Under the pieces are notes generated by a model, which ran no database searches, was not told where the DNA came from, and worked only from the letters and a program-made list of their open reading frames with translations. A stretch of DNA of 64,000 nucleotides from Acidobacteriota bacterium (GTDB lineage: Bacteria > Acidobacteriota > Thermoanaerobaculia > Gp7-AA8), in NCBI GenBank assembly GCA_034667465.1, contig JAXDJV010000014.1:209-64208 (forward strand), written 5' to 3'. The position numbers and the translations under genes are program-made. Below, piece by piece: positions 24,934 through 50,901 of the stretch. Within the stretch, counting starts at the first letter, position 1; every line of letters begins with the position of its first letter.

Positions 24934-25560
24934 CGAAGCTTCATCTGCTCGGTGTGGCGAAGGTGCGGCGCAGCCTGATGCTTCCGATCATCGTGTTCAC
25001 CGTGCTGAACGCGGCGACCCATGCGCGCGGGTTCGACGGAGAGTGGTGGTGGATGGTGCCGGCGTATGTGCTCTTCGACAGCCTGCTCTGGACCGGTGTC
25101 GCGTTTCTCATTTTCGCCGTGGTCGAGTGGAGGGAGAAACTGCGTCCGCAGCCGCGCTTCGCGGCGATGGTGGTGGCGACGGCCGGCATCGCCACGCTCG
25201 CCGCGGCGATCATCACCGTTCGGGCGCTCTTCGATTCGATCATCCATCAGCAGCCATTCGTGCGGCGGTGGCTCAGGTATCTGCCGGCCGGTTTCTACGG
25301 CGCCGCGTTCTACGTCGCGATCGTCACGGGAATCGCCTACGGGGTTTATTCGTGGGCGGTCGATGACCGGCGTCTCGCCGCGGCGGCGGAGCTCGATGCG
25401 GCGATCGCGAGGGCGGAGCTGAAGGCGGCGTCGGCACGTCTGCAGCCTGAATCACTCGACGCCGCACTGGCACGAATCTCCACGCTCATCGCGACGGACG
25501 TCGCCGGCGCGCAGCGCCTCATCTCGAACCTCGGAGCGCAGTTGCACGATTCACTCGCGG
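24930..25560 (+). pseudogene. 3'-truncated paralog of a LytS-type histidine kinase (TM region plus start of kinase core only)
   Basis: TM helices then ELKAASARLQPESLDAALARISTLI (the same motif as the intact kinase). There is no ATPase domain, and the reading frame runs into the 3' end of lanB on the other strand. Confidence 0.45.
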
Positions 25561-28500
25561 ACCCCCGCTCCTCGCCAGTTGCGAGCGGTACAACTGCACG
25601 AGATAGTCGTAGACGACCAGCTCGTGCTCCGGCCCGGCGGAGCGGCTGAGACGATTCACGAACATGTGGATGACGCTCTGAAGGATCGCCTGCAGTGGCA
25701 TCTGCAGACGGCCGCGGCGCTCGAGTGCGATCAACTCCGCGACGACGCCGGCGATCGCTTCCGATCTCCGCTGCAGCGCGCGAACGGACGTTGATTCATC
25801 GACCAGTCGCTGGAACGCGCCGCGCTCCCGGCGGAACCGCTCCGCGAGCAACTCGCGCACGGCTTCGTACTGGAACTGCTTCGCCAGCAGGTCGCGTGAC
25901 GTCTCCGCCAGTCGCAGCCGGCCCGCGGCGTCGCAGCCGAAATCGCGGAGCAGCGTGTCGATGCCGGCGGCGATGAACGGTGCGCGAGACGCGGAGCCGG
26001 CGTCGCCGCTGCAGGCCTCGAGCAACTCGATGACCGCGACGCTGTCGCGGAAGAAGATCTCTTCGACGAGATCGATCGCCTCCGCGCCGCCGTAGCGTTC
26101 CACTTCGCGCTCATACGTGTCGAACTGCACTTTCCACGCGAGACCTGCATCGAGCAGACGGCTTCCTGCCGCCTGCAGCGCCGGTTGCACGCTTTCGCGC
26201 AGCGTGCGCGGATCGCCGTGAAAGCGGATGCGCAGATGCCAGTGCGGATCGGAATAGCGGATGAAGAACCAGCGGTCCGCCGCACTGTTCGCAATCGCGT
26301 CAGCCGCAAGCGGCGCGATCTCCTCCGCCAGGACGCGATCGGCGGTCGCGGTGCCTGTATAGAACTTCGCGAAGAGCCACTCCGATCCGGGAGCAAACGT
26401 TCGTTGAATGAGTGGCGCGGGCGACTTCCTCACCGCCGGCGCCGGCGCCGCGACCGGCGCGCGTTTCGCGAAGGGGATCACGAGCTCGTGGAAGAAGCTC
26501 CCTTCCGGACCTTCTGCGCAGAGTTGATCGGGCGCGGGATAAAGCTCCGTGAAGACGAAGTCTTCGCGGTTGCGAACGAGCTCGACTACCGCGTCGAGCG
26601 CGAGGACGTTTTCGAAGTCGACGAGCAGCTCGTGATCGCCATCCGTCAGCACGACGTAGCGAGGCATGCGATGCTCCTCGCGAAGGCGCTGAACCGCGCG
26701 GTAGCGTGCGGCGCCGGAGCTCGCAGCGATCGTTTGGATCTGCGCGCTCATGATGCGCCAGCGCGCACGCGCCAGGACCAGCCGGCCGCTGACGATGCGC
26801 GGGAGGAACGGCAACGTCTCGAGCGGCCCCCAGTTCCATTGCATGCCGAGTCCTTGCGAAACCGCGGCGAGAAACCGATAGACGCCCAGGCTTTCAGAGG
26901 TCGTGTTGTGCGCGCTGGTCAGTCGCGGAATCACTTCGCGGTCGAGCCGTTTCGAGCGAAGACGGATGCGATCGCCCGAGACGCTGACGAGCAGATCGTC
27001 GAGCGGAATCTGCGCATCTTCCGGCGCGCCCGAGCGGCCGAGGAATGGAATCTCGTATTTGCGCAACACGGGGCGCGCGAGGATGTTGCCGATCCGTCCG
27101 GCGGGCAAATGCACGATCTCCGCGAACAGCGCGCCGGGACGAAGCGCTTCTTCCGCCGCCAGATGTTGCTCGACGCCTTCGCGGATTGCAGCATCGGCGT
27201 GGCAGAAGCGGCCGAGCATGCGCGCGCCCGAAGGTCCCGACGCGAAGTGGAGGTGCACGCGGTAGTCGCCGCGCTCCACCGCCTCGGGCGACGTCGCAGC
27301 GATCGTGGCCATGGCATGGAACGCGTCGGGCAGCGGCGGCCGATCGATGTTCTGCAGTCGCGCCAGATCCTCATCAATGAGCTCGATCTCCGTCCGCCCT
27401 TCGCCGAGTGCGCGAACGAGTAACTGCAGCAACACGGCGTCGCTCGGGCCCAGCGCGACGCGCTGTCTCTCGACTCGTGAGCGGAGCGGAAGACCGGCGA
27501 GTAGCGGCGACGCTTCGGCGGCCGCGCTGCCGGCGCGCTCGTAGCCGATGCCGTTTTCTTCGTCGAGCGCGACGAGGAGCGGAACTTCGCGATCGGACCC
27601 GTAGCGCTCCGAAAACGCGGAGCGAAATTCGTCGAACGCGGGCTCTCCCCGCTGCTGCGAAAAGAGGTGCAGGATCTCGACGCCGCGCAGGATTTCCGCG
27701 ACGACGTTTTCGCCGAGGACGACGTCCGATGGCGGCTTGATGAGATCGACCTGAAAGAGCCGCCTGAGCTCGACCGGAACGCCGAGCGGTTCGAGCTCGC
27801 GCGCGATCAGGCGATAGCGTTCCTCCGTCGAAGAGCTCGCGCAACGATCGATACTCGCGAGCGCGTGAGCTGCGCCGGCGAGTCGCGTACGTGCGTCGCC
27901 GGCGGCGGCGACGCCTTCGAGTTGCTGCAGCAGATCGGCGGTGCTCTCATCGCCCGTCACCGCAAGTGCGAGGTCGGGAAGGAGCAGCTGGTTGTCGACG
28001 ACGTCATCGACGAATGCCGCGGCATCCTCCATCGTGATCTCACCATCCGGATCGGAAGCGACGAGCGCCTCGGCCAGCTCACGCAAACGCGCGCCGCCGC
28101 GCGCGCGCTGCAGCGTGTCGCGCAATGCATCGAACGCGTCGAACGCCACGAGGTGATACGTGCGCTGGCGTCCCGCGACGCGCGACTCCGCGAAGCGCAG
28201 ACGTCCCGCCGTTTCGTAGAGCGTCGAGTTCGGACGGAACGTCAGATCGCTGCGGATCTCGGGAATCCGCGCGAGGTGCTCGCAGAGCGCGTGCAGGTAA
28301 TCCATGTCCAGGCGACTGTGCCGGCGATACGCGTTGCGTTCCGTCAACGCCAGCCGCGTCTGCTCGCCGATGCGGCCGGGCGTGCAGCCCGAGAAGAGCC
28401 CGAACGGCGTCGAGCGCGTGACCATGCGCAGGAAGTAGCGCACCAGTCCCTGCTCCGTGCGCCGCCCTTTCTTCGAGTCGGGCTCGCGCCGCCACGCTCC

Positions 28501-28743
28501 GATGCTCTCCATGATGTCGGGCGAGGCGAGGAAGATCGCATCGGCGACTTCCGGACGACTGAGCAACGCCTGCAACCGCTCGCGCAACAGCGTGCGATCT
28601 TGCGTCAACGCGTCCTCGAGGGTTGTGTCATCAGCTGACGCTGCGCGCAGTCCATCCGTCCACGCATCGAGCGTTTCGCGTGGAAGCAACGGCGTGCGCA
28701 TTACCACCAGACCGCTCGCGCCGAACTCTGTTGGGATGGTCAT
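25519..28743 (-). CDS. lanB: Class I lanthipeptide dehydratase LanB (full length, about 1074 aa)
   Basis: The true start is taken at MTIPTEFGASGLVVMRTPLLP, the hallmark LanB N-terminus. The length fits glutamylation plus elimination domains. The 354 codons upstream in the ORF track are Arg-rich read-through. Confidence 0.85.
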   Translation of the reverse strand: MTIPTEFGASGLVVMRTPLLPRETLDAWTDGLRAASADDTTLEDALTQDRTLLRERLQALLSRPEVADAIFLASPDIMESIGAWRREPDSKKGRRTEQGLVRYFLRMVTRSTPFGLFSGCTPGRIGEQTRLALTERNAYRRHSRLDMDYLHALCEHLARIPEIRSDLTFRPNSTLYETAGRLRFAESRVAGRQRTYHLVAFDAFDALRDTLQRARGGARLRELAEALVASDPDGEITMEDAAAFVDDVVDNQLLLPDLALAVTGDESTADLLQQLEGVAAAGDARTRLAGAAHALASIDRCASSSTEERYRLIARELEPLGVPVELRRLFQVDLIKPPSDVVLGENVVAEILRGVEILHLFSQQRGEPAFDEFRSAFSERYGSDREVPLLVALDEENGIGYERAGSAAAEASPLLAGLPLRSRVERQRVALGPSDAVLLQLLVRALGEGRTEIELIDEDLARLQNIDRPPLPDAFHAMATIAATSPEAVERGDYRVHLHFASGPSGARMLGRFCHADAAIREGVEQHLAAEEALRPGALFAEIVHLPAGRIGNILARPVLRKYEIPFLGRSGAPEDAQIPLDDLLVSVSGDRIRLRSKRLDREVIPRLTSAHNTTSESLGVYRFLAAVSQGLGMQWNWGPLETLPFLPRIVSGRLVLARARWRIMSAQIQTIAASSGAARYRAVQRLREEHRMPRYVVLTDGDHELLVDFENVLALDAVVELVRNREDFVFTELYPAPDQLCAEGPEGSFFHELVIPFAKRAPVAAPAPAVRKSPAPLIQRTFAPGSEWLFAKFYTGTATADRVLAEEIAPLAADAIANSAADRWFFIRYSDPHWHLRIRFHGDPRTLRESVQPALQAAGSRLLDAGLAWKVQFDTYEREVERYGGAEAIDLVEEIFFRDSVAVIELLEACSGDAGSASRAPFIAAGIDTLLRDFGCDAAGRLRLAETSRDLLAKQFQYEAVRELLAERFRRERGAFQRLVDESTSVRALQRRSEAIAGVVAELIALERRGRLQMPLQAILQSVIHMFVNRLSRSAGPEHELVVYDYLVQLYRSQLARSGGPRVNRATALRGSR

Positions 28744-29444
28744 GACGCGATCGCTCCACGTTGAGTTTCGATGCGTGGCGGAATGCTGACGACCATCAGC
28801 CGATCCCATGACGGCTCGACGTCGGTAGCCGCGGCGAGCAACGCGAGACCGATGCCGGCGATGCCGGAGAGGAATCCCGGCTCGCCTCTCCACGAACCTT
28901 CTGCGCTCGGAGTCGATTCGTACCAGCTGAGAAATCCTGCGAGGCCTTTGCCGGGCCGGCGCATGTCGAGCGCGATCCGATACCACCGCAGCGCGGCTTC
29001 GCGAAGCTCGTCGTCGCCGGTCGCCTGCCAGATGCGGTTGAAGAGGTGCGCAACGCCGGTTGCTCCGTGACACAGACCGGCGTCGGCGACCATCGTGTCT
29101 TCGACTGAGCGCCGCGCCGCGACGCGCGCGATGCTGATCGCTTCGTCGCGCCATTCGGAGCGGTCGAACGCATGCGCGGCGGAAAGCAGCACCGCGGCGA
29201 CGCCGAGGTCGCCGTAGCACCACGCCGTGCGCGTTGGCCGCGGCGCGGAATCGGGTGGAATGTGCGATGGGAACAGCGAGCCGGGCCAGATGCCTTTCTG
29301 CGCGAGCACCCATTGCACCGCGTCGTTCGCGAGTTGCGCGACGCGCCGATCGCGCACGCCGGCATGCTGCGCGGCGGCGAGAAAACCGATCACGCCCGGG
29401 ATGCCGTGCGCGACGCCGAGGTTGTAGTGGCCGCGCGGCATCAA
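28740..29444 (-). pseudogene. lanC: LanC cyclase, C-terminal half only (GxAHG, WCYG and CHG Zn-ligand motifs present; N-terminal about 200 aa missing)
   Basis: HYNLGVAHGIPGVIGFLA, TAWCYGDLG and AGLCHGATGVAHL. The same frame continues upstream only about 35 codons (...DENGAWFSIPDWLPDWQRELMPRGH) before a stop. ATGA overlap with lanB. Confidence 0.7.
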
Positions 29445-29504
29445 CTCGCGCTGCCAGTCCGGCAGCCAGTCGGGAATCGAGAACCACGCGCCGTTTTCGT
29501 CGCG

Positions 29505-29694
29505 CGAAGAGGCCAGCAGTCCCCGCGGCCGTGAGCAACCGTTGCGCGTCGAGGCCGTGCCGCGAGAGACCGGTCACGCCGCGCACGTCGTCGAGCGAGA
29601 CGTGTCTGCCGTGCAGTGCCAGCGTCATCGCCAGACATGCCGAGCCGCAGTCCGTTGCCGCGGTCTGCGCGACGAAGGGGATGCGTTTAGCCAT
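29505..29694 (-). pseudogene. Fragment of a C39 bacteriocin-processing peptidase domain (first about 65 aa, lacking the His/Asp half)
   Basis: MAKRIPFVAQTAATDCGSACLAMTLALHGRHVSLDDVRGVTGLSRHGLDAQRLLTAAGTAGL matches the Q...CG.A.LAM...G..SL..LR......G.S..G...AA...G pattern of C39 domains. It then runs out of frame into lanC. Confidence 0.45.
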
Positions 29695-30586
29695 GACCGA
29701 GTCCCACCGCGAAGACGAGTGCCAGCAGCAGCGCGGCGACGGTGGCCACCGCGAGCCACGGTGTGCCGCGCGTCCATGCGGCGTTGAGTCGCAGCGGTTC
29801 GGCACCGGCGAGCAGCGGCTGATCGATCTCGCGCAGCGCGTTGTGCCGAAACGGACTGCCCGGCGTTTCGATCAGCCACGTGACAAGGTAGGGACTGGCA
29901 TGCGCGGCAAGTGCTTCGAGCATCGCGACGTCCTTCGGCTCGAACGGCGGATCGTGTTCCGGCCGGAGCGCGATGAGCACCGCGACGATCGCGCCGCGCG
30001 GATCGCTGTCGAGCCGCGTCAGACAGACGGTCATCCCTGTCCGCACGATGAAACTGACGAGGCCGACCGCGGCGCTCGCTTCTTCGCTCGCGTCGCCCGG
30101 ACTCCAGAGCACCTGGTGCTCGCGCTCGAACAACACGCAGCGGCTGCGACGGGTCTCGATGACGCTGCCGATCGCGCGCTCGACCGCATCGGCGACGTCG
30201 GCGACATTCTCCGCCGTCGCCATCCTCCGCAAATCCTCGGCGGGCAGAAACAGCTCGTCCGAACCTTCACGCCCATCGATCGCGCGCGCGCCGTCGATCA
30301 GCGCGTCGAGCTGGCGTTCCGGAAGGTCACCGCATGAGAGATAGAAGAGCCGATCGGCGTCGATGAGCGGCTGAAAGTCCGCGAGCTGGTCACGCGCAGT
30401 GAGAACGATGCTCGTACAGCGCGTGCCCTTCCCGGCGAAGAGGTCGAGTACCGCGATCACATCGCATGCGACGGCCCCGGGACCAAAGACGAGGACAGCG
30501 CGCTCGTGTTCCCGAATCGCGTCGAGCTGCGCGCGATCGATCGACGATTTGATGCGGTAGAGCGGCTGCGCGCTGGCACTCATCAC
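29687..30586 (-). CDS. Hypothetical protein with GAF-like domain and C-terminal TM helix
   Basis: 299 aa. The central VGLVSFIVRTGMTVCLTRLDSDPRGAIVAVLIAL block is GAF-like. C-terminal hydrophobic helix TPWLAVATVAALLLALVFAVGLG. Confidence 0.4.
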   Translation of the reverse strand: MMSASAQPLYRIKSSIDRAQLDAIREHERAVLVFGPGAVACDVIAVLDLFAGKGTRCTSIVLTARDQLADFQPLIDADRLFYLSCGDLPERQLDALIDGARAIDGREGSDELFLPAEDLRRMATAENVADVADAVERAIGSVIETRRSRCVLFEREHQVLWSPGDASEEASAAVGLVSFIVRTGMTVCLTRLDSDPRGAIVAVLIALRPEHDPPFEPKDVAMLEALAAHASPYLVTWLIETPGSPFRHNALREIDQPLLAGAEPLRLNAAWTRGTPWLAVATVAALLLALVFAVGLGHG

Positions 30587-30674
30587 CGGCCGAGTTTGCT
30601 GCGCGTCGATCGCGCGCCGAAGACGAAAGGGACGGATGCAGCAGATTCAGGGATGGGTGGGGCGGGGGTGGGGA

Positions 30675-31370
30675 TTATGGAACCGCCCGTGAGAGGGCGG
30701 TGTCCTGGACCGCGTGTCCAAGCGCTTGCCGAGACTCGCTATCGATCGCCTGCGATGATCGGCGAATCGATGACACCATTTTCGGGGGAAGACGCTTCCA
30801 TTCCTTGCGCAGATCCATCGGGCGGTCCTCTGCGAGAACCTCAATAAGTTGTACGGCCTGTCGCCGGTCTTTGCGCGCCTTCTGCTGCTCGGACACCGGT
30901 CGTCTCTCCGCGACCCAGAGTTTGTGCAGTGCGAAGGCGGCCGGTGTTGGTATCTGCACGAGGATTCCGGCGCCGGCGAGGACGGCGGCTTCCGTACTTT
31001 CGGCAAGGAGATATCCGAGGCCGGGCAGCGGTTGAGCGGCAGCATTGAGCTGCGGAAGATGCACCGGCTTCGCACCGTCCCGATTGCCGGGTGTCAGGAG
31101 ATCTACGCGGAGGTCGGGGCCGCGAACTTTGAACGACGTGCCTGGGTGGTGCGGATCGAGCTCCGGTATGGCAAAGAAGCGCGGGTCGGAAACACGGAGC
31201 GTCTCCAGAATGTCGACACGGATCGCGGCGACGCCGACACTGATCGCCGGTTGCGCGACATCGTCGTCGTCGGTTCGACCCGTTTGCTGTTCGAATCGCA
31301 CTGCCAGCATGTTGGCGATGCAAATGAACGCCTGCGTGCCGATGCGAGCCTTGCAGCTCAAGCACCTGGC
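30675..31370 (-). CDS. Hypothetical protein (possible nucleotidyltransferase-fold); the 5' end abuts or overlaps a tRNA-derived repeat
   Basis: 237-aa ORF with no decisive motifs. The ...LHKLWVAERRPVSEQQKARKDRRQAVQLIEVL segment is reminiscent of nucleotidyltransferase/toxin-fold proteins. The start is uncertain. Confidence 0.3.
   Translation of the reverse strand, partial: ARCLSCKARIGTQAFICIANMLAVRFEQQTGRTDDDDVAQPAISVGVAAIRVDILETLRVSDPRFFAIPELDPHHPGTSFKVRGPDLRVDLLTPGNRDGAKPVHLPQLNAAAQPLPGLGYLLAESTEAAVLAGAGILVQIPTPAAFALHKLWVAERRPVSEQQKARKDRRQAVQLIEVLAEDRPMDLRKEWKRLPPKMVSSIRRSSQAIDSESRQALGHAVQDTALSRAVP
30681..30712 (-). repeat. Degenerate copy of the anticodon-arm plus D-arm segment of the tRNA-Glu gene (about 31 of 35 nt identical)
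   Basis: aaccgcccgtgagagggcggtgtcctggacc versus tRNA region accgccgtgagagggcggcgtcctggacc. Confidence 0.5.
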
Positions 31371-31423
31371 GGGTAGTTGGCAGCGCATACGGATTTGAAC
31401 CCGTGTTACCGCCGTGAGAGGGC
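31371..31423 (-). repeat. Direct repeat of the 3' half of tRNA-Glu plus 8 nt of 3' flank (attachment-site-like repeat, candidate attR)
   Basis: gggtagttggcagcgcatacggatttgaacccgtgttaccgccgtgagagggc matches 37362-37418 with 3 differences, in the same orientation. Confidence 0.7.
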
Positions 31424-31664
31424 TATAGCGGCGAATCTATATCTATCTGATTCCAAATGTTTAGCGCGACATCGCCATCTTGCGGGTCCGCCGAAATATG
31501 CCATTTCGGGCACCTCCAAGGCCAAGTATGCGATGGGTTTTGCGAAGGCAACTACCCCGGCCACAGTTGCGGAAACGATTGACCGAGGTCTGACCTCCAA
31601 CGCATTCCGCCTTCACTGTAACGAATTGCTCTCTTTCGTCACTACACAAGGTGAGGAGATCCAT

Positions 31665-34604
31665 ATGTCACACGTCACCGGGACGCTCCAGCCAGTCGCG
31701 CCGTCGAAGACCATCGGCCCCGGAACGGGGGATCCGCCCAGCTCACCAGGGGTGTGGAGTTTCAACTTCATTCCCACGGACGCGCCCGGCGGAACCAAGC
31801 TGGCGGTGCTGCATTTCAAGAACGTCAGCCTTCCCGGCACGAGTAAGCTCGAAGTGGATCTGGGCTATGCCACAGACGTCTTCACCTCCGCCGACGGCGC
31901 TGAGTTTTGGACGCGTCCCGCGAACATCTATCCCGCCGCCCTCGGCGGACTCGATGGCAAAGTCCCGATCCGCTACATTCAGGGCGGCGGCGCGGGAACC
32001 GTGGAGCTCGATGTCTGGGGTCGCGGCGAACAGCATGCCGGCGAGCCCGGTCATCCCAGCATCTCGAACTCCGACCCGTTTCAGAAGGAACTCAACTACG
32101 TCGAGCCGACGTATGACCCGTTCTGGTTTTGCGTCAATCCACCGAACTGGGAGAACGCGTCGAAGGTGGTCGATCCCGACGTCCGGGCGCATGTTGCGCG
32201 AAGCGTCGGCATGATCCTCACCGTCGAGAAAAGCACCTCCAGCCCCACCATTCAGCTCTCCACGTGCTCGGTGACACTGATCGATACCGACAAGATCATC
32301 ACCGCCGGGCACTGCCACACGCCCCAGGAAGCACTCAACAGTGCCGTCACGTTCGACTGGCGCCTGACCGCCGACGGCAAGAGGCCGAATCCGTACACCT
32401 GCCGCTTCTACAAGGTAAAGAGCGTCGTCAAGCATCATTACGCCGGCGGCTTCGACTACAGCATTCTCCGGCTCGCGGAAGCACCAGTGGGTATTCCGAT
32501 CGTGCAGATGCGACACGATCTCCCCGGCGTCGGCGAGCATGTGTTCGGAGTTCACCAACCGAACGGCGCGCCGAAGAAGTTGTCCGTTCCCCATCCTGGA
32601 TTCGACACTGTGGTGACCAGCGCGGCGATGTCGATCACCGTGCCGACGAACTTCCACGTGTCGGGCGGCAGCTCCGGATCGGGACTCTTCGACACGGCCG
32701 GCCGAATCGTCGGCGTGCTGTCGAACGGCGACCCCTGCGGCGGCGGCGCGCTGTCGTACTTCCCCACGGCCACGGTCATGACCGATCTGGTCCCCGTTCC
32801 CCCACCAGCAGTAACGCGCGATGTGATGGTGGTCTTCGACCGGTCCGGCAGCATGTCGCTCGACGACGGCACCGGGCGCAAGAAGATCGATGTCGCGCGC
32901 GACGCCGTCTCGCTATTCGTGCAACTGGTCAAATCGTCCGCCGGCAATCGCGCCGGTCTCGTGTCATTCAGCACCACGGCCAGCATGCCGGTCGACTTCG
33001 CGATCACCAGCGTCACCGATCCGCACAAGCTCGCGCTGATTGGGCCGGCGCCGTATTCGGGAGGCAAGGTCGGAGCGTTGATGCCTGGCGGGGCGACAAG
33101 CATCGGCGAAGGGCTCGATGCGGCACGTCTGCAGTTCCCTGCGCCCGGCGTGAATCCGCGCGCGATCCTGCTGCTCACCGACGGCCTGCAGAACACGCCG
33201 CGCATGATCGGCGACGTCGAAGGAGCTCTGGCGGGTATCGACTTGCACGCCATCGGATTCGGAACCGATGCCAGTCTCGACGGCGCGATCCTCAACAATC
33301 TCGCTGCGGCGCACAACGGCTTCTATACCCGCGCCGCCAACGGCCTGTCTCTCGAGAAGTTCTTCTCTCATGCGTTCGGAAATATCTTCGAAAACGGCGT
33401 TCTGTTTGATCCGGAGTTCGATCTTCCGGCCACCCAGAGAGAATCGAAACCGCTGTCGTTCAATATCTGCGGCGAGGAAACGGTGACCGCGATCATCGGA
33501 TGGAACGAAGTCAACGGTGCGCTTCGTATCAACGTCCGGACTCCCGGCGGCGCGCTCATCACCGGAGCATCACCCGGCGTCATCGAGAACTCCGGCCGGA
33601 CGTGGTCGTTCCTGCGCATGCCGCTGCCTCAAGGAGCGGAACGCGACGGCGTCTGGACGCTGACCGTGGTCCGTCCCGGCGGCGGCGAGTTTCCGCCTCC
33701 ATCACCAGATCTACGTTACTTTGTCAGCGTCGTCCCCACCGGCGGTCCGCGTCTGCGGCGGATGCCGGACAAGCGCCGCTACTACACCGGCCAGACGATC
33801 AATCCGCTGGTCGAGCTTCGCTACGACGACAACACGTGGCCCGAACGAGTGCACAAAGTCGAGATCACGATATCGATTCCGACGATCAATGCCGGAACTT
33901 TGCTCTCGCGTGGGGGACTCCGGCCGCCGATGACGATCGACGCCGATACAGTCCCCTCGAGGCAGACGACCCTGCTCGCTCTCGAACAACACGGCAAGCC
34001 GGTGATCGGATACCACGAGCAGACGTTCGAGCTCAGCGGCGAATCGGCGGATACGGATGGGCAATTCGAAGAAGCGGCGGTGTTCGGTAGGCGCTTTACG
34101 GATCTTCTCGCCGCGGAAGGCAACTACACGTTCCACTGCCGCGCAACGTACGGCGAAGGCTGCACTGCAACGCGTGAAATGCTTTGGAGCGTTCACGTCG
34201 ACATCGGCATCGATCCGTCGCATACCGTCACGACAAGCACGACGACAACGACGCATCCCGACGGCTCGACGACCGGAACGGTTACGTTTACACCGCGCGA
34301 CCGCTACGACAACAACCTCGGGCCCGGCCGCACCGACGGCATTTCCATCGCTGGCATCTCCGGCACGTCCGTGACCGGACCGCCGGTCGACAATGGCGAC
34401 GGTTCCTACACCGTGCCGGTCTTGGTCGCGGCCGGCGCCGATCCCGGCGTCGTCATCGTCCAACCCGGCCTCCCCCCCATCGTTGTCGCACCGTCCAAAC
34501 CCGCTCCGCTGGTGCCTCGCAAGGACTGCAAGACGTGGAAGTGGCTCTTCTGGATACTGCTATTCATCATTGTCGTGCTCCTGGTCCTATTGTTCTTGAA
34601 ATAG
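31665..34604 (+). CDS. Large exported protein with a trypsin-like serine peptidase domain, a von Willebrand factor A domain and a C-terminal TM anchor
   Basis: The start is chosen at MSHVTGT, which has GAGGAG 6 nt upstream. Trypsin-like motifs (ITAGHC ... GGSSGSGLF). vWA MIDAS motif (VVFDRSGSM ... LLLTDG). C-terminal WKWLFWILLFIIVVLLVLLFLK helix. Confidence 0.7.
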   Translation: MSHVTGTLQPVAPSKTIGPGTGDPPSSPGVWSFNFIPTDAPGGTKLAVLHFKNVSLPGTSKLEVDLGYATDVFTSADGAEFWTRPANIYPAALGGLDGKVPIRYIQGGGAGTVELDVWGRGEQHAGEPGHPSISNSDPFQKELNYVEPTYDPFWFCVNPPNWENASKVVDPDVRAHVARSVGMILTVEKSTSSPTIQLSTCSVTLIDTDKIITAGHCHTPQEALNSAVTFDWRLTADGKRPNPYTCRFYKVKSVVKHHYAGGFDYSILRLAEAPVGIPIVQMRHDLPGVGEHVFGVHQPNGAPKKLSVPHPGFDTVVTSAAMSITVPTNFHVSGGSSGSGLFDTAGRIVGVLSNGDPCGGGALSYFPTATVMTDLVPVPPPAVTRDVMVVFDRSGSMSLDDGTGRKKIDVARDAVSLFVQLVKSSAGNRAGLVSFSTTASMPVDFAITSVTDPHKLALIGPAPYSGGKVGALMPGGATSIGEGLDAARLQFPAPGVNPRAILLLTDGLQNTPRMIGDVEGALAGIDLHAIGFGTDASLDGAILNNLAAAHNGFYTRAANGLSLEKFFSHAFGNIFENGVLFDPEFDLPATQRESKPLSFNICGEETVTAIIGWNEVNGALRINVRTPGGALITGASPGVIENSGRTWSFLRMPLPQGAERDGVWTLTVVRPGGGEFPPPSPDLRYFVSVVPTGGPRLRRMPDKRRYYTGQTINPLVELRYDDNTWPERVHKVEITISIPTINAGTLLSRGGLRPPMTIDADTVPSRQTTLLALEQHGKPVIGYHEQTFELSGESADTDGQFEEAAVFGRRFTDLLAAEGNYTFHCRATYGEGCTATREMLWSVHVDIGIDPSHTVTTSTTTTTHPDGSTTGTVTFTPRDRYDNNLGPGRTDGISIAGISGTSVTGPPVDNGDGSYTVPVLVAAGADPGVVIVQPGLPPIVVAPSKPAPLVPRKDCKTWKWLFWILLFIIVVLLVLLFLK

Positions 34605-35645
34605 AACGTGACGTCCCGCCGCCTACGCGGTGGGGCGTTTGCGCTCTTGCACAGTGGGGACCGGCACTGCGAGTCTCGTCGGGTGACGAGGAGTGACATT
34701 AGGCGGCTGGATGGGGTCACACCTTTCTTCCTTGTTTCGCATCCCAAGCTGGGTCAGACCTTCGTTTCGACTCCGCCGCAAAACGAGGGTGTGACCCCAC
34801 TCTCGTGCGCCAAGGGTGATTATTAGCAGGCCAACCCGGGGAACGTTGCGTGGCCGTTAACCGGTGGGGCAACGCGCGCCGCGCACCCGTGTGGCAATGC
34901 CACGCGCCGGGCGTACATCGTGCGCGTCCCCTGCTGCAGTGTTGGTGTAGCGCTGGAACATATAAAGGCTGTGGCTGCGGCCACAGCACTCCAAGCGGTC
35001 TCGCGAGTGGGGTGTTTCCTGGACGAAGATTGGACCTGCCGATGAGGCACGATCAAGACGCAACCTGGCAGCTGCGCCGCGAACGGTACTCGTCCTGGAG
35101 TGCTGTAGCCGCGGCTACAGCCTTCGGTGACCAGCGACTGGAGTTCGATCAGCCCCTTCGGCGCTCGTGGACTTCGGGCCGGTCCATCCGGGGCAGCACT
35201 TCGCGCGGAAACTCGACGGCCACCGACTTTTCGAGAATGGAGACGGAGACGATCAGGCGCAAGGCGCCGCGCTCCTGCAGCACGACGCCGGTGTACCGCT
35301 GATGAGCCTTCCTTGATGTCCACCGGGCGCCGACGGTGATCTCGTCGATGGGGGTCAGGACGGCGCCGCTGGCCTGGAGCTGCCGGATCTGCAACAGTTC
35401 GGCGGTGAGCCTCGGCTGGCCGGGACCTCGAGCATGTTGGCACGGCGTTGGTGCGCCAGAGCGTCTCGCGGAGTCCCTGCACCCGCGGACGAAGATGTAG
35501 CCGGGAACAGCGGCAGGTGCGAGACGAACGTCCTCCCGGCGAGGTAAACCCAGTCGCGGAGATAGCTGCTGCGCGATGTATTACGGCGTTATAGCCAGCC
35601 TTCTGTTAATATCTCCGCTTCAGCTTCAGCACAGCGAGGATACTT

Positions 35646-37166
35646 ATGCGTCGAGCCGCCTGCATGCTCATGGTGTGGCTGGTCGCCGTCATTGCTCTTG
35701 GCGAGACGGGCAAGCCGCGCACCGATGTCAACCTGCGCACCGCGCCGAACACGCGGAGGAGCAGAGTCATCGCCGTGTTGAGCACGGCCGACACCTTCGA
35801 GATCCTCGAGACGCGGCGCACGTGGTGTCGCGTGCGCGTGGCGGGCAGCAGCGCCGAGGGCTGGCTGGCGAAAAAATACGTCGAAATGATTCCCGCCGCG
35901 CCGCCGGCGCCCGCTCCCGTTGCCACTGAGGGTGGCGGCACGCTGGCCACTCTGCTCGTTCTCCTCTTGATCGGAGCGTTGCTGGGCGGTGTCGGCTACT
36001 CCGCCGGGCAACAGCCCGATTCCGCGACGAGCAAACGCTGGGCCGTTTTCATCGCCAGTTTCGCTCTGGGTACGTTCTACATCGGCTTCACGCTGCCGAA
36101 GGGATTGGCGACGCTCGGCGCCGAGCGGCAATGGCTGGCGGTCCAGCGCCTCGGCGAATGGAGCCTCGCATTTAATCAGCGACTGGCCGGCGCCATTCCC
36201 GACTTCTCCACGTTGATGCGTTACGTCGCGTGGGCGGTCGTGATCTACCTCGTCTCGCTGCTGATCCTCGGCGTGCACCACGGACAGCTGAACCTGTTCG
36301 GATGGGGCGCGGCCACGCTCGCGTTTTCCGTGGCGATTCTGCACGTGCTGATCTGGGTGTCGTTCATCGTGGCGAAGATCGTAATGTTCGTCTTGTGGGT
36401 CTTCGGAGGGATCGCGCGGTTCTTCGGCGCCGTGCTCACGTGGATCCTCCAGGCCATCTTCGCGATTTTCGTGTGGATCTATGAGCTGCTCGCAAACTGG
36501 CTCGGCGCGTTCTGGTGGATCGTGCCCGTCGCAGGCGTCGTCGTGATGCTGGCGCTGATGCTGCGATCACGCACCAGCCCGAAAGACCTGCTCGCGCTCA
36601 TCGGCCGCGTTCTGCTCGCGGGCGCGGCGGCGAGCGGAGTGTTGTTCGCGCTGATCCGGGCCTGGCGGTGGATCGAGCCGATTCTGGTCGCGCTCGCGAC
36701 ATTCCTGCGAGCGGTCGTGCTGTTCATCGTCGCTCTGATCGCGAAGCTTTTGCTGGGTGCGTTGTTGATCGTGGCAGTGGCGACGGTCGGACAGTTGCTG
36801 CTCGATCAGATCAACGGCGCGCTCTCCGCGGGACGCCGTCGCTACGGCGTCATCATCGGAGCGGTCGCCATCGGCAGTTCCATCGCGGTCCTGCTCTTCA
36901 TCAGCAACCTTTATGGTGTGACCGGATGGCTGCCATCCCAGGTGACGGAGTTTGCGACGCACTACCTCCACCAGCCGGCGCCGCTGCTCGACGCGGTGAT
37001 CGCGCTTGCAGTCGTCGCCCTGAGCGTCGTCGGCGTGTGGCGCAACATGCCGGCGATGGGCCAGGAGCCGACCCTGGCGGAGTTCGGCAAGTCGATGGTC
37101 TACGTCATCGCAGGCATCTGCGTGACCGGCGCGCTCGGCGCGATCGCGGGACAGACGGAGAGTTGA
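35646..37166 (+). CDS. Polytopic membrane protein with N-terminal SH3b domain
   Basis: Signal peptide, SH3_3-like segment (VNLRTAPNTRRSRVIAVLSTADTFEILETRRTWCRVRVAGSSAEGWLAKKYVE), then at least 10 predicted TM helices. Confidence 0.6.
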   Translation: MRRAACMLMVWLVAVIALGETGKPRTDVNLRTAPNTRRSRVIAVLSTADTFEILETRRTWCRVRVAGSSAEGWLAKKYVEMIPAAPPAPAPVATEGGGTLATLLVLLLIGALLGGVGYSAGQQPDSATSKRWAVFIASFALGTFYIGFTLPKGLATLGAERQWLAVQRLGEWSLAFNQRLAGAIPDFSTLMRYVAWAVVIYLVSLLILGVHHGQLNLFGWGAATLAFSVAILHVLIWVSFIVAKIVMFVLWVFGGIARFFGAVLTWILQAIFAIFVWIYELLANWLGAFWWIVPVAGVVVMLALMLRSRTSPKDLLALIGRVLLAGAAASGVLFALIRAWRWIEPILVALATFLRAVVLFIVALIAKLLLGALLIVAVATVGQLLLDQINGALSAGRRRYGVIIGAVAIGSSIAVLLFISNLYGVTGWLPSQVTEFATHYLHQPAPLLDAVIALAVVALSVVGVWRNMPAMGQEPTLAEFGKSMVYVIAGICVTGALGAIAGQTES

Positions 37167-37369
37167 GGATCGTGAGAAACTCCGCGCGATGGTCCAGCAT
37201 CGTTTTCCTTCGCCAATCGCGCGCGAATGGCTTTGGGACGCAGGATGAGAATGGTCGAGAGCCTTTGCCTCGCCCTTGAATCGCTCAGCAGCCGGGTCAC
37301 GGTCTCGCGCGAGGTGCCGATCATCTGCGCGACTTCCGGCCTAAATTACTGGAGCGGCAAGGGATAGTT

Positions 37370-37445
37370 GGTAGCGCATACGGGATTTGAACCCGTGTTA
37401 CCGCCGTGAGAGGGCGGCGTCCTGGACCCCTAGACGAATGCGCCG
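37370..37445 (-). tRNA. tRNA-Glu: tRNA-Glu (anticodon CUC), CCA encoded
   Basis: The reverse complement folds as a cloverleaf: GGCGCAT/ATGCGCT acceptor, CCGCC-CTCTCAC-GGCGG anticodon arm and ACGGG-TTCAAAT-CCCGT T-arm. It is close to the E. coli tRNA-Glu sequence apart from the anticodon. Confidence 0.85.
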
Positions 37446-43524: not shown

Positions 43525-46500
43525 TTACCTGAGAGTCATCGATGGATCGCCGAAGAAGATCCACGATTTGCGAACGTCGGGATCGCTCGCAGCCGACTTC
43601 GCGCCGCGCACGGCGTCGCCGAGCGCGACGTGCGGCGCGGCGAAGAGACGGCGGAAGAGCTCGCGATTCATGAGCGCCTGCTGATCGGGCTGCGTCAGCG
43701 ACGACGACGCCCAGACCGCGATCGCGCCGCCATTCTGCGAACCGATCAGCGCTTCGGCGAGACTGCGCGTGTAGATGTCGTGGAAGTAACCGTTCAGGCA
43801 GCTCATCGAAACGACGAACGGCAGACGGGAACCGTTCTGCAGATTGTCGGCGGTGGCGCTGCCGAAAACTCCTTCGCTCCACATTTCAGCCGATGCGTGA
43901 CCGATGTAATCGACGATGAGCGAGCCGCGCATCATCGCGTTGACGAGATCGTCGTACGGCGTCGGCGTGCGCGCGAAGTCGATCGTGCTGCTCGTCATCG
44001 TTGGCGGCAGCAGCGCCGCGAGCGACGTCGTCACTTCAGCGAAGTCGTAGTCGGTCGGATGATCGGCGACGAGCACGGCGTCGTTGCTCCACGTTCCGCT
44101 CGGCGTTCCGCGGCCGGTCAGTTTCGCGAAGTAGCGCGCTGCATCGGCGGCGGTGCGGACCGGCACGCGCCCGACCGCCATCTCGGCGATGCCGTCGTCG
44201 TTGAAGTCGGCGAACCAGTCGTCGGATGCGGTCTTGATCAGCGTCGTCGCGATGAGCTTCGTCGGAACGAAGTCGTACGCGCCGCTGTGCAGGTAGTTGC
44301 GCGGGTCGATGCTGGCGTCACCGACGAGCATCACGTAACGCGGCGCGGTCTTCCACTTCGCCGCGGTCGCGAGGAACGTGCGGATTGCCTTCGGAGAACG
44401 GATGCCGAATCCGAATTCGTCGTAGACGTCTTCAACGTCGACGACGACGGTCGCGGTCCCTTCGCGCTCGCGCACCGGCTGCAGCGTCGAAGCGGCTGCC
44501 ATGAATGCGCTGTTGCTGATGATCACGAGGTCGGCGCCTTTCGCCGCGGAGAGCGTCGACGGGCGATTGGCCGCGAGCTCCGCCGGTGCGAGGACGCGCG
44601 ACGGCTGGAAGACGAGCACGACGCGCGCGCCGCTGCCGGCGGGAGTGAACGTCGCGGCATAACCGCTTCCCTGCGGTGCGACGACCGTTTCGAGCTCGAT
44701 CGGTGCAATGGAGTTGGTCACGTCGAGTGCGCGAACACCTGCGGCCGTGAAGCCGCCGACGGTGACCGCGCGTCCGCCCTGGAGCGTCGCTTCGAGCGCG
44801 CCGTCGTCAGCGCTGAGGAGATGTTGATACGTGAGCCGCGTCGAAGCGCCGACGCTGATGTCGGACCAGCCGCCGAGCGACTGCAGCGTGAGCGTGTTGG
44901 TGCCGGCGGCGAGCCACGATTGCGGGAAGTCGAACGTGAAGGTCTGCTGCTGCTGATCGGCGAACGTCGCCGTGCCGAGGTCGTGGCCGCCGAGCGAGAC
45001 CGCAACGTTGTGCACGGCGGGATGCGTCGTTCCCTGCAGCGTCAGTTCCAGTCGCGCATTGCCGCCGAACGTCGGATCGAGATTGCCGACCGTCAGCGGT
45101 TGCGTCGCCGGGATCGGCATCACGATCGGTCCGAAGAAGTTGTCGCCTTCGCCGTTGTTCGTGATCGCCGCGACGAAGACCGCGCGATCTTTTCGCTCGT
45201 ACGTGAACGCGATGCTGCCGGTCAGCGGATCGCCGCCTTTCGTTTTCGACGTGTCGATCCGTCCGCCGCCTTTGCTCTTCTCGAGTCGCAGCCAGTACGT
45301 GCGCACGCCGGTGGAGATGGCGTCGAGCGGCGTTGCATAGAACTCGATCGCGTCGGTCGCATCGAGCTTGCCGTCGCCACCATCGGAGACGATGAGCGGC
45401 TGTTCGATGCCGCTGGTGTAGAGCGCGAGTCCGCGTGCGTCACTGCCCGGATCGAATCCTGCGGCAGTCATGGTGGCGCGCGTCAGGCGATACCACCCTT
45501 CCTGCGTCGTGTAGATCTTCAATCCTGCATCGGCTGCGAGATCGCTCTGCGTTTTGAATTGTTTGTCGGTGACGTCTTCGGAGTACGTTCGAACGACGCC
45601 GTAACCGGCGGGGGAGGCGACGACGCTGCCGCCGGCTCCGAGGCCGGGAAGCGGCGTCGCGTTCTCCGGCTCATCGACGTAGCCGCTGATCGGCGAGACC
45701 GGACCGTGCATCGTTTTCACGCCGCTGAGGTCGACGTCTTCGAGCCAGTACTGCGCGAAGACGCCGCTGTCGAGTTTGTCCTTCAGGCGATATCCATGAT
45801 CGGACTGACCATCGTGTTTCGCTGCGAGCAGCGCGGTGCCGGCGATCAGCTGTTCGTTGACCTGCGTACGAACGCCGCCGGTTTCGCGATAGATGTTGAA
45901 GCCGAGGTTGTCGGCTTCGAAGCTCGTCTGCCACGAGATCATCACGTTCTTATTCGTTTGCTTCACGCTGAAGTCGCGGAGGCGAACGAGCGTGACGGAG
46001 AGCACGGTCGTCGTCGCGGTCGAGCTGTTGTTGGCGGCAACAGGATCGGTCTTCGTGCCGCTCACCGTCGCGGTATTCGTCAGCGTGCCGGCGACCTGCG
46101 TCTGGACGACGATCGAGATTGTCTCGGTCGCACGAATCGCCATCGTGCCGACGCTGCAGACAATCGTCGTCGTGCCCGCGCAGCTTCCGGCGCTCGGTGA
46201 TGCGCGGATGAAGAAGACGTTGGCCGGCAGCGTGTCGCTGACCGTGACGCCGGTTGCGACTTCCGGTCCGTTGTTCACGACGGTGATGAGATAGGTGACG
46301 AGCTGGCCGGCGCCGACCGGATCGGGCGAATCGGTCTTCGTGATACCGAGATCGGCTTCACCGTTTCCGCGCACGAGCGCGGTGTCGGTGGCGCTGTTGT
46401 TGGCCGCGATCGAATCGACGATGCCGCCGGTCGTGGCGATGTTGCACGTCTGCGAGATCGTCGTGCCGGGCGCGGTGCCGACGATGCTCTGGAAGACCGG

Positions 46501-50409: not shown

Positions 50410-50427
50410 GATTGCCCCGTAGTCATT

Positions 50428-50901
50428 TCAGACGGAAAGCGCGCGAACCTGCGCGGTCTCCGGAATTCCATTCGATGTGGCACGGCCGAAACGCCGCTGA
50501 AGCGAGTGACGTACACGCCGCAACACGGCGAGGGCCTGCTGTGTGAGAGCGCCGCGCGAATCGACGGCGGCGCAACGGCCGTCGCGCTCGACGCCGGAGA
50601 TCCGGCCGAGAACGGCGCTGCCGGCGACGATGGCGTCGGCGGTAAGTGAGTTGTCGCCGCGCGTGCGAACGCGCAGCTCGCCGCGCGTCGCGTCGAGCTC
50701 GATGATTCGATGCGCGGTCAGGCCGCGCGGCGCGGCGGTGAGCACGACGTCGCCGACGCGCAGCGATTCTTCATCGCAGCGCGTGACGTGCACGAATTCG
50801 CCGCTGCGAATCGTCGGAATCATGCTGTGTCCCGACGCGCAGAACCGCGCGTCGTAGCCCGCGGCCAGCACGTCCTGCAGCGTGTTGACGAACATCGTCA
50901 T
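50428..50901 (-). CDS. S24/S26-family (LexA/signal-peptidase-like) Ser peptidase, candidate leader peptidase
   Basis: ASGHSMIPTIRSGEFVHV...GDVVL resembles the GxSMxPT nucleophile motif. 157 aa. Translationally coupled (ATGA) to the HprK-like gene. Confidence 0.55.
   Translation of the reverse strand: MTMFVNTLQDVLAAGYDARFCASGHSMIPTIRSGEFVHVTRCDEESLRVGDVVLTAAPRGLTAHRIIELDATRGELRVRTRGDNSLTADAIVAGSAVLGRISGVERDGRCAAVDSRGALTQQALAVLRRVRHSLQRRFGRATSNGIPETAQVRALSV

What the first reader, a model, noticed from the sequence alone, without database searches (positions are those of the whole stretch)
31371..37445. tRNA-Glu with a 53-bp direct repeat of its 3' end 6 kb away: integrase-less genomic islet carrying a trypsin-vWA anchor protein and an SH3b membrane protein
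37362-37418 (tRNA 3' half plus 8 nt flank) is repeated at 31371-31423, in the same orientation and with 3 differences. That is the classic signature of site-specific integration into a tRNA gene. The bounded segment (31424-37361) holds two cargo genes and about 1 kb of non-coding, hairpin-rich DNA, but no integrase. Next to the tRNA lies the last about 20 codons of a Crp/Fnr-type HTH (...PEVAQMIGTSRETVTRLLSD), i.e. a gene remnant. This looks like an old, degraded island or a remnant of successive integrations.
Basis: seen in the sequence. Interest (0 to 1): 0.6.

Follow-up and report, generated by a model that had tools for sequence, protein, structure and literature searches.

The report
Decayed two-module island at tRNA-Glu
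A 6.7-kb stretch next to a tRNA-Glu gene looks like the worn-down remains of at least two mobile elements that inserted one after the other and left copies of the tRNA's end as scars; this is an ordinary kind of genomic island, with one odd passenger gene whose last codons are written in tRNA sequence.

Summary
tRNA-Glu(CTC) lies at 37369-37444 (-). Its 3' 47 nt plus a 7-nt flank recur at 31371-31423, with 33 nt exact and none expected by chance.

The island is larger than reported. Two relatives (L014, L015) carry an empty site: the GAF gene, 13 nt, then the tRNA. Against them, window 30681-37370 (6.69 kb) is an insertion. The 53-nt repeat is therefore an internal att copy. The outer boundary is a third tRNA-like copy (30682-30711, tRNA nt 17-46), which also forms the 3' end of a 5'-truncated nucleotidyltransferase gene.

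Two other relatives carry different cargo at the same tRNA. Two viral contigs carry the same tRNA segment (nt 28/29-76 plus CCA) beside an integrase gene. A soil contig (L017) shows the intact form: tRNA, nucleotidyltransferase gene, 59-nt tRNA copy, toxin-like gene, tRNA fragment.

The window's tRNA ends in the element-type flank CCAACTATCC, not the native CTC.

No integrase or integrase remnant is present. The cargo is a mosaic: a Crp helix-turn-helix remnant, an SH3b membrane protein, a possible NusG-like pseudogene, and a widely transferred trypsin-vWA gene.

Verdict: a decayed tandem array of integrase-less modules, a known kind. Interest is moderate to low.

The parts
37369..37444 (-). 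tRNA-Glu(CTC) gene, the proximal att copy (attL). Its 3' end carries an encoded CCA and is followed by the element-type flank ACTATCC (37362-37368).
   Evidence: ARAGORN; Rfam 60.4 bits. Three relatives (the empty site L014 and the differently occupied L001 and L016) end GCGCTA|CTC with no CCA. The window, L017 and the viral att-like sites end GCGCTA|CCA... (alignment A3).
37100..37342 (-). C-terminal remnant of a Crp/Fnr-type regulator (helix-turn-helix only). It begins 22-27 nt after the att flank. The roughly 170 N-terminal residues expected from the usual length of Crp/Fnr proteins (general knowledge) are missing.
   Evidence: PF00325 21.4 bits (cut-off 21); PF13545 E 7e-6, profile positions 27-69 of 70.
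35646..37166 (+). Cargo gene: SH3b domain protein with many hydrophobic, apparently membrane-spanning stretches (506 aa).
   Evidence: PF08239 SH3_3 E 1.7e-9. An identical gene sits on an independent Logan contig, L004.
34605..35645 (.). Spacer about 1 kb long with no intact gene. It holds a 29-nt inverted repeat (34965-34993 / 35096-35124) and a possible frameshifted NusG/UpxY-like pseudogene on the minus strand (about 35130-35560).
   Evidence: Six-frame Pfam search found nothing. UpxY hit only E 0.027. Inverted-repeat fold -100 kcal/mol, z -6.5.
31608..34604 (+). Cargo unit: trypsin-like peptidase plus vWA protein (CDS 31665-34604, 979 aa, hydrophobic C-terminal tail) with 57 nt of upstream sequence.
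   Evidence: Pfam Trypsin_2, VWA_2 and VWA. Its 89%-identical homologue sits as a solo gene at another locus in a related acidobacterium, and nucleotide homology covers exactly 31608-34603. The family shows 57-63% identity across phyla.
31424..31607 (.). AT-richer, non-coding end of the proximal module next to the internal att copy. It may be an element arm.
   Evidence: No homology to any fetched locus except same-strain contigs L004 and L005. Sequence.
31371..31435 (-). Internal att copy ('frag 2'): tRNA nt 26-76 plus flank CCAACTACCC. It is decayed: a 1-nt deletion in the T arm, discriminator A>G, and a 6-nt CTATAG insertion at the 5' edge of the anticodon loop.
   Evidence: Not called as a tRNA. 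It starts at nearly the same tRNA position as the viral att-like sites (nt 24, 28 or 29 to 76 plus CCA). Its best match, flank included, is L017 copy 2 (58 nt, 89.7%).
30675..31350 (-). Distal module: 5'-truncated nucleotidyltransferase gene of the GSU2403 type (PF12281). It lacks its promoter and roughly the first 115-125 codons.
   Evidence: PF12281 E 1e-44. Full-length homologues are about 345 aa and carry DUF6788. Homology to all of them starts at window 31349/31350.
30682..30711 (-). Distal att-like copy ('frag 3'): tRNA-like nt 17-46. It is also the last codons of the nucleotidyltransferase gene, and it lies exactly at the island/backbone junction (30680|30681).
   Evidence: 24/25 identical to the tRNA. 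Backbone homology to the empty site L014 ends at 30680. In L017 the same gene end runs on into a 59-nt tRNA copy.

Best explanation
Window 30681-37370 is a decayed, integrase-less composite island. It was probably built by successive site-specific integrations (tandem accretion) into the tRNA-Glu(CTC) gene.

Inferred mechanism. Elements of one att family carry an attP made of the tRNA's anticodon arm through its 3' end, plus CCA and about 7-10 further nt. A tyrosine integrase recombines this attP with the tRNA, probably with the crossover in or near the anticodon loop. The gene is then rebuilt with the element's 3' part, and the previous 3' part is pushed to the far end of the element.

Proposed order of events. 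A nucleotidyltransferase-carrying element, whose gene end overlaps its att site, integrated first. A second element then integrated into the rebuilt tRNA. That produced the order: tRNA, module A (37361-31424), internal att copy, module B (31370-30712), distal att copy, backbone.

Later decay. Deletions removed the integrase(s), the 5' part of a Crp-like gene, the promoter and roughly the first 115-125 codons of the nucleotidyltransferase gene, and about 39 nt of the distal att copy. Module A also became a mosaic that includes a widely transferred trypsin-vWA gene.

Shown: the insertion relative to an empty site, the three tRNA-derived copies, the element-type 3' end on the tRNA, the absence of an integrase, and integrase genes beside matching att-like sites in viral contigs. 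Inferred: the order of events, the crossover position, and the deletions.
For: (1) Empty site. L014 and L015 are collinear with the window on both sides, at 84-87% on the left and 86-89% on the right. They have only 13 nt between the GAF-gene flank and the tRNA 3' end, so 30681-37370 is an insertion.

(2) Hot spot. L016 (95.6% nt) and L001 (86%; 95.7% to L014) carry unrelated cargo, and synteny breaks at or within 2 nt of the tRNA 3' end.

(3) Only three tRNA-derived copies exist in the 64 kb. All are in the tRNA's orientation and all contain the anticodon stem-loop. They lie at the two boundaries and at one internal junction.

(4) The tRNA's 3' end is element-type. It reads CCA+ACTATCC against native CTC in L014, L001 and L016. 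The same flank type occurs in frag 2, in L017 and in viral contig L021.

(5) Viral contigs carry internal copies of tRNA nt 24/28/29-76 plus CCA. L019 has a PF00589 integrase (E 5e-20) 107 nt away. L021 has a PHROG_1 integrase (E 5e-23) 47 nt away.

(6) L017 shows an undecayed parallel: tRNA, full nucleotidyltransferase gene, 59-nt tRNA copy (97%), ETX_MTX2 gene, 26-nt tRNA fragment.

(7) Decay is visible in the Crp helix-turn-helix remnant, the truncated nucleotidyltransferase gene and the mutated frag 2.

(8) The concept is established in the literature: tandem accretion and cis-mobilizable elements (PMC5704250), and tandem ssrA islands in Dehalococcoides (PMC3146451).
Against: No integrase or integrase pseudogene was found in the island, and none was detected in the rest of the 64-kb window with the two integrase probes used. 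Integrase action is therefore inferred, not shown.

The distal boundary lacks the expected displaced tRNA 3' half. About 39 nt are missing, which needs an extra deletion.

Both gene remnants start within about 30 nt of an att copy, which needs two deletions flush with att sites.

Frag 3 is the natural C-terminal coding sequence of the nucleotidyltransferase clade. It also occurs far from any tRNA (L009, L018), so it may not be a scar made in situ.

Composition is not atypical.

All comparators are metagenome or MAG contigs. One of them, L005, shows a 100% to 88% identity switch that suggests a chimera.

No nucleotidyltransferase homologue occurs in IMG/VR viruses.
Confidence: 0.75

Rival explanations
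1. One reading: one islet bounded by the tRNA and the 53-nt repeat (31424-37361), with the nucleotidyltransferase remnant belonging to the host backbone.
For: The 54-nt repeat is the longest and cleanest repeat. The independent Logan contig L004 breaks exactly at the two copies.
Against: The empty site L014/L015 lacks the nucleotidyltransferase remnant, and backbone homology resumes only at 30680. The flank of the 53-nt copy is element-type (CCAACTACCC, closest to L017 copy 2), not the native CTCGCTC.
Confidence: 0.08
2. The array was not assembled in this lineage. It arrived, or was reshuffled, as a block by homologous recombination through the conserved flanks (the tRNA/FG-GAP side and the GAF side). 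The tRNA fragments would then be scars inherited from integrations in donor genomes.
For: There is no integrase. Composition is host-like. Close relatives hold wholly different cargo between the same flanks. L005 is 100% identical to the window over the module-A end, frag 2 and the first 70 nt of module B, but only 88% identical beyond. The flank of frag 2 resembles that of a distant soil contig, L017.
Against: This still needs site-specific integration somewhere to create the copies. The element-type 3' end sits on the functional tRNA. The distal junction lies inside a tRNA-like sequence and not in flanking homology. L005 may be a chimeric contig.
Confidence: 0.15
3. The copies come from local duplication and decay of tRNA genes (tRNA pseudogenes), not from att sites.
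For: In L017, ARAGORN calls the second copy a tRNA.
Against: Frag 2 and frag 3 are not called as tRNAs by ARAGORN or Rfam. They lack the 5' part. Frag 2 begins at nearly the same tRNA position as the att-like sites of integrase-bearing viral contigs. The copies coincide with synteny breakpoints.
Confidence: 0.02

Closest known systems
Tandem accretion arrays with cis-mobilizable elements (CIMEs), as described for ICESt1-related elements of Streptococcus thermophilus (Pavlovic et al. 2004, cited in PMC5704250)
   Same: Decayed elements lie side by side at one target gene, have lost their integration and transfer genes, and still show att-derived repeats. [quoted passage not shown]
   Different: Here the att copies are themselves damaged: a 6-nt insertion and a 1-nt deletion in frag 2, and a missing 3' half at the distal copy. 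Present-day cis-mobilization is therefore doubtful. The modules are tiny (0.66 kb and 5.9 kb), the host is an acidobacterium, and no related integrase-bearing element was seen in the window.
Tandem ssrA genomic islands of Dehalococcoides (PMC3146451)
   Same: Several islands lie in series downstream of a small RNA gene. Each is bounded by a direct repeat of the gene's 3' end. Content differs from strain to strain, and some modules lack integration genes.
   Different: Those islands use a 20-bp repeat, a serine recombinase and a T-loop site. Here the repeat is 47-60 nt, it starts at the anticodon arm, and the associated viral integrases are tyrosine recombinases.
tRNA integration with the crossover in the anticodon loop (classification of Williams 2002, Nucleic Acids Res; recalled from my own knowledge, not checked here)
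   Same: The identity block runs from the anticodon stem-loop to the tRNA 3' end and a few nt beyond, so the element restores the gene.
   Different: The crossover position was not determined. Membership of the relevant integrases in a particular subfamily was not tested.
Genes that overlap their element's att site, such as the SSV1-type integrase gene that contains attP (own knowledge)
   Same: A coding sequence and a tRNA-derived att sequence occupy the same nucleotides. The last 9 codons and the stop of the nucleotidyltransferase gene equal tRNA-Glu nt 18-47.
   Different: The overlapping gene is a cargo nucleotidyltransferase, not the integrase. The overlap covers only the last 30 nt and integration does not split the gene.

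Membership tests
tRNA-targeting integrative element / genomic island | Inserted DNA directly downstream of a tRNA gene, absent from the same site in relatives | tested here: met
   L014 and L015 have an empty site with 13 nt between backbone and tRNA. Window 30681-37370 is extra.
tRNA-targeting integrative element / genomic island | Direct repeat of the tRNA 3' portion at the distal boundary | tested here: inconclusive
   A clean 54-nt copy exists but is internal (31371-31423). The true distal boundary carries only tRNA-like nt 17-46, without the 3' half.
tRNA-targeting integrative element / genomic island | The tRNA 3' end is supplied by the element (sequence differs from the native end) | tested here: met
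   The window has CCA+ACTATCC. L014, L001 and L016 have native CTC. The same flank type occurs in viral contig L021 and in L017.
tRNA-targeting integrative element / genomic island | Integrase gene inside the element | tested here: not met
   Pfam on ORFs and six-frame translations, plus tblastn with XerD (sequence recalled from memory) and the L019 integrase, all negative.
tRNA-targeting integrative element / genomic island | Excision to a circular form with attP and restoration of attB | not testable with these tools
   Needs reads or PCR across junctions.
CIME / tandem accretion array | Two or more modules in series separated by att copies of one target gene | tested here: met
   Order is tRNA, module A, frag 2, module B, frag 3. 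L017 is a parallel array.
CIME / tandem accretion array | Functional attL and attR retained, mobilizable in cis by a related element's integrase | not testable with these tools
   The att copies carry indels and a truncation, so function is doubtful. No resident integrase was seen.
Second tRNA gene or tRNA pseudogene from gene duplication | A recognisable cloverleaf that includes the 5' half | tested here: not met
   ARAGORN and Rfam (E up to 1) find only one tRNA in 29.5-38.5 kb.
Integron-type cassette array | An intI integrase with attI next to cassettes that end in attC sites | tested here: not met
   No integrase was found. The separators are tRNA fragments. The one strong inverted repeat (34965-35124) lies inside module A, not at a module boundary.
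Anti-phage defence island | Cargo matches known defence system proteins | tested here: not met
   PADLOC gave no hits for the trypsin-vWA protein, the SH3 membrane protein, the nucleotidyltransferase, or the cargo of L001 and L016.

The most novel reading that the evidence does not exclude
The DUF6788 + PF12281 nucleotidyltransferase gene may be the core of an autonomous or semi-autonomous 1.1-kb single-gene element specific for tRNA-Glu(CTC), not mere cargo.

Several observations fit this. Its last 9 codons and stop are tRNA-Glu nt 18-47. In L017 the gene is flanked by the tRNA and a 59-nt tRNA copy. It has its own palindromic promoter/operator. It occurs as a solo gene in many unrelated contexts.

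The protein might take part in att-site recognition or recombination. Alternatively it might act on tRNA-Glu, with the tRNA-like 3' end of its mRNA serving as a decoy or regulator.
Probability: 0.1. Interest if true: 0.75.

Novelty: new member of a known kind. Interest (0 to 1): 0.38.

Why it matters
For annotation, this marks tRNA-Glu(CTC) as an integration hot spot in this acidobacterial lineage. Three different occupants and one empty site were found among close relatives. The case also shows that the obvious tRNA repeat need not be the island's edge.

For mobile-element biology, it adds acidobacterial examples of integrase-less modules, some of them single genes, strung together by tRNA fragments. 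It also links them to viral contigs that carry a matching att-like site next to an integrase gene.

The one finding that goes beyond routine is the nucleotidyltransferase clade. About 21 of the 37 closest homologues end in VQDAALSRR*-like sequence, which is the translation of the tRNA. That is a clean molecular fossil of a gene end fused to an att site. It could be used to trace this element family.

Tried and rejected
- **Composition as evidence of foreign origin.** GC, GC3 and tetranucleotide profiles of the island are not outliers.
- **L002.** This metagenome relative of the FG-GAP gene (64% aa) has no tRNA and only paralogous neighbours, so it was uninformative.
- **L003.** This viral contig ends in a different tRNA-Glu with another acceptor stem. 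It gives only weak support.
- **Integrase pseudogene in 34.6-35.6 kb.** None was found. My reading of a NusG-like pseudogene got only E 0.027 against UpxY.
- **L005 as a second genome with the same junctions.** The identity switch from 100% to 88% at about 31300 makes it a likely chimera, so I did not rely on it.
- **Frag 3 as a plain att scar.** This needed revision once the peptide proved to be the conserved C-terminus of the nucleotidyltransferase clade.
- **Defence-system annotation.** PADLOC gave no hits.
- **Plasmid origin of the trypsin-vWA gene.** Only weak domain-level hits appeared.
- **Nucleotidyltransferase in viruses.** No homologue in IMG/VR.
- **Literature on PF12281, GSU2403 or DUF6788.** Nothing relevant.
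Full report
**1. Checking the observation.** ARAGORN finds a single tRNA in the 64-kb window, tRNA-Glu(CTC) at 37369-37444 on the minus strand. Rfam scores it 60.4 bits over the full model. The reported repeat is real. 31391-31423 is identical to 37383-37415 (33 nt). 31371-31392 matches 37362-37383 at 91%, with a 1-nt indel between the two blocks. None of 100 shuffles gave any match. The copy lies downstream of the tRNA, in the same orientation. It covers tRNA nt 29-76 plus a 7-nt flank. After a 6-nt palindromic insertion (CTATAG), six more nucleotides of the anticodon stem match. I call this copy frag 2. A BLAST of the tRNA against the window shows exactly one more copy: 30687-30711 is 24/25 identical to 37404-37428, and it extends to 30682-30711, which is tRNA nt 17-46. 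I call this copy frag 3.

**2. What lies between the copies.**
- The trypsin-vWA gene (31665-34604) and the SH3b membrane-protein gene (35646-37166) are confirmed by Pfam.
- The 81-codon ORF next to the tRNA is a Crp-type helix-turn-helix remnant.
- Six-frame translations of 34600-35650 match nothing in Pfam.
- A frameshifted reading on the minus strand looks NusG-like to my eye, but it only reaches E 0.027 against UpxY.
- Between frag 2 and frag 3 lies an ORF matching PF12281 (E 1e-44). Its homologues are about 345 aa. Homology starts at window 31349/31350, around codon 116-124 depending on the homologue used. The gene has therefore lost its promoter and its N-terminal third.
- No integrase was found by Pfam or by tblastn with two integrase queries.

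**3. Relatives and the empty site.** The FG-GAP gene next to the tRNA served as anchor.
- L001 (MAG RYN_27, 86% nt) keeps the tRNA and the right flank. From the tRNA 3' end onward it has unrelated, low-GC DNA encoding a Ham1-AAA protein and an XRE-like pseudogene.
- L016 (95.6% nt) has a third kind of cargo there, including an Arc-like protein.
- L014 and L015 (86% nt; 95.7% to L001) are the empty site. BLAST gives L014 1-5652 = window 23883-29522, L014 8487-9722 = window 29523-30680, and L014 9735 onward = window 37371 onward. In L014 only 13 nt (CTCGCTCTTCCCC) separate the tRNA from the backbone sequence CCATAAATCCCC.

Window 30681-37370 (6,690 nt, give or take 2 nt) is therefore an insertion. 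Its far edge is frag 3, not frag 2.

**4. The tRNA's 3' end is element-derived.** L014, L001 and L016 read GCGCTA|CTC, with no encoded CCA. The window reads GCGCTA|CCAACTATCC, and frag 2 reads GCGCTG|CCAACTACCC.

**5. Elements that use this site.**
- Scanning IMG/VR for the tRNA's T arm and acceptor end found five viral contigs with internal, partial copies: tRNA nt 24, 28 or 29 to 76, plus CCA. These start at nearly the same tRNA position as frag 2.
- In L019, a tyrosine integrase gene (PF00589 E 5e-20; PHROG_1 E 2e-55) lies 107 nt from the copy. In L021, an integrase gene (PHROG_1 E 5e-23) ends 47 nt from it.
- The flank in L021 (CCAAATATCTC) equals the flank after the tRNA in L017 and differs from the window's CCAACTATCCC at two positions.

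**6. The distal module and L017.** Frag 3 encodes the natural C-terminus of the nucleotidyltransferase. Of the 37 closest homologues, about 21 end exactly with a peptide matching at least 6 of 9 residues of VQDAALSRR. Two match perfectly. That peptide plus its stop codon is the translation of tRNA-Glu nt 18-47.

At the DNA level, identity of the gene's 3' end to the tRNA varies:

| Locus | Identity to the tRNA |
|---|---|
| Window | 96% (24 of 25 nt) |
| L005 | about 86% |
| L009 | 84% |
| L018 | 88% over 25 nt |
| L006-L008 | weak or no similarity |

L017 resolves the puzzle. On this 3.2-kb soil contig, an intact tRNA-Glu(CTC) at 39-114 is followed by the promoter and the full nucleotidyltransferase gene (193-1224). 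The gene's end runs into a 59-nt copy of tRNA nt 17-76 (97% identical). Next come an ETX_MTX2 gene and a third fragment running from the T loop to the 3' end plus CCAA. This is an undecayed parallel of the window's layout: single-gene modules separated by tRNA-Glu fragments, with no integrase on the 3.2-kb contig.

**7. Model.** The simplest account is tandem accretion.
- An element carrying the nucleotidyltransferase gene, whose att site overlaps the gene's end, integrated into the tRNA.
- A second element with the same att type integrated into the rebuilt tRNA. That left frag 2 as the middle copy.
- Deletions then removed the integrase(s), parts of two genes and about 39 nt of the distal copy.
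- Module A is itself a mosaic. Its trypsin-vWA unit (31608-34603) occurs at 87% nt identity as a solo gene at another locus of a related acidobacterium. The family keeps 57-63% identity across phyla.

The concept is well described: CIMEs and accretion in PMC5704250, and tandem ssrA islands in PMC3146451.

**8. What does not fit neatly.**
- The distal copy lacks the expected tRNA 3' half.
- Both gene remnants begin within about 30 nt of an att copy.
- Composition is host-like.
- Frag 3-like gene ends exist far from any tRNA (L009, L018).
- L001 and L016 keep the native CTC, so their islands use another junction type.
- L005 is 100% identical to the window down to about 31300, about 88% identical to 30700, and unrelated beyond. 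It is either a chimeric contig or a recombinant.
- An alternative is that the whole block was imported or replaced by homologous recombination through the conserved flanks. This cannot be excluded for the last step of the history.

**9. Dead ends.** PADLOC, plasmid search, PDB sequence search, Foldseek on an AlphaFold model of the nucleotidyltransferase (pLDDT 82), IMG/VR search for the nucleotidyltransferase and a literature search on the family gave nothing usable. Sub-threshold Foldseek hits to integrase arm-binding domains (E above 1), which I take to involve the protein's N-terminal β-sheet-plus-helix domain (the aligned residues were not reported), are only a lead.

**10. Verdict.** The feature is a new member of a known kind. 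Its one unusual detail is the tRNA-templated gene end.

Noticed in passing
window 29522|29523 (ORF 25519-29805): Deletion junction in a class I lanthipeptide cluster. Relative L014 has LanB, LanC, a 67-aa precursor, an ABC/C39 transporter and a GAF gene. The window lacks 2.8 kb (the LanC N-terminus, the precursor and most of the transporter), which leaves a fused ORF whose N-terminus matches Peptidase_C39.
   Followed up: partly
L017 1-2700; window 30682-30711; proteins P0001-P0037: A clade of DUF6788 + PF12281 nucleotidyltransferases ends in VQDAALSRR*-like sequence, the exact translation of tRNA-Glu(CTC) nt 18-47. In L017 the gene end continues into a 59-nt tRNA copy. More distant homologues (below about 60% identity) lack it.
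   Followed up: yes
L006 ~9960-10000, L007 ~1030-1070, L008 ~110-148, L009 ~95-135, L017 ~153-192, L018 ~6430-6470: A conserved palindrome, TTATACGC-N13-GCGTATAAT, lies about 40 nt upstream of every full-length nucleotidyltransferase gene examined. It is probably a -10 box plus an operator. The window's copy has lost it.
   Followed up: partly
window 34965-34993 and 35096-35124: A 29-nt inverted repeat whose arms are themselves palindromic. It encloses 102 nt, folds at -100 kcal/mol (z -6.5) and is unique in the window. Nature unknown; it could be a MITE or IS remnant, or a pair of terminators.
   Followed up: partly
window ~35130-35560 (-): A frameshifted reading frame with an NGN-like motif (HLPLFPGYIFVR) and a KOW-like tail, possibly a NusG/UpxY-type pseudogene. 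Support is only a weak NCBIfam hit (E 0.027) and no Pfam hit.
   Followed up: partly
window 31608-34604; L010-L013: The trypsin-vWA gene behaves as a solo, widely transferred unit. It is 87% nt identical at a different locus (between DUF1499 and GGDEF genes) in a related acidobacterium, with homology limited to the gene plus 57 nt upstream. It keeps 57-63% aa identity in Bacillus, Ralstonia, Paraburkholderia, Massilia, Thermoleophilia and Anaerolineales.
   Followed up: partly
L005 1-1686 vs window 32184-30682: Mosaic identity: 100% down to window ~31300 (apart from a 39-nt deletion near 31810-31850), about 88% to 30700, and unrelated after the nucleotidyltransferase stop. This is either a chimeric metagenome contig or a real recombinant.
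   Followed up: partly
L001 1-1939; L016 1-1736: Two other occupants of the same tRNA-Glu site: a Ham1-like + AAA-kinase fusion with an XRE-like pseudogene (L001), and an Arc-like protein with small ORFs (L016). Both start after the native CTC, a different junction type from the window's. Neither matches PADLOC.
   Followed up: partly
tRNA T loop: window 37388, L014 9753: The tRNAs at the three occupied sites among the close relatives (window, L001, L016) read TTCAAAT in the T loop. The empty-site tRNA (L014, L015), L017 and the viral copies read TTCGAAT. It is not clear whether this marks an element-derived 3' half.
   Followed up: no
window 46000-51000: Strong tetranucleotide outlier (z up to 3.7). 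It coincides with the repeat-rich 2294-aa CLIPPER/Peptidase_C25 gene at 43525-50409.
   Followed up: no
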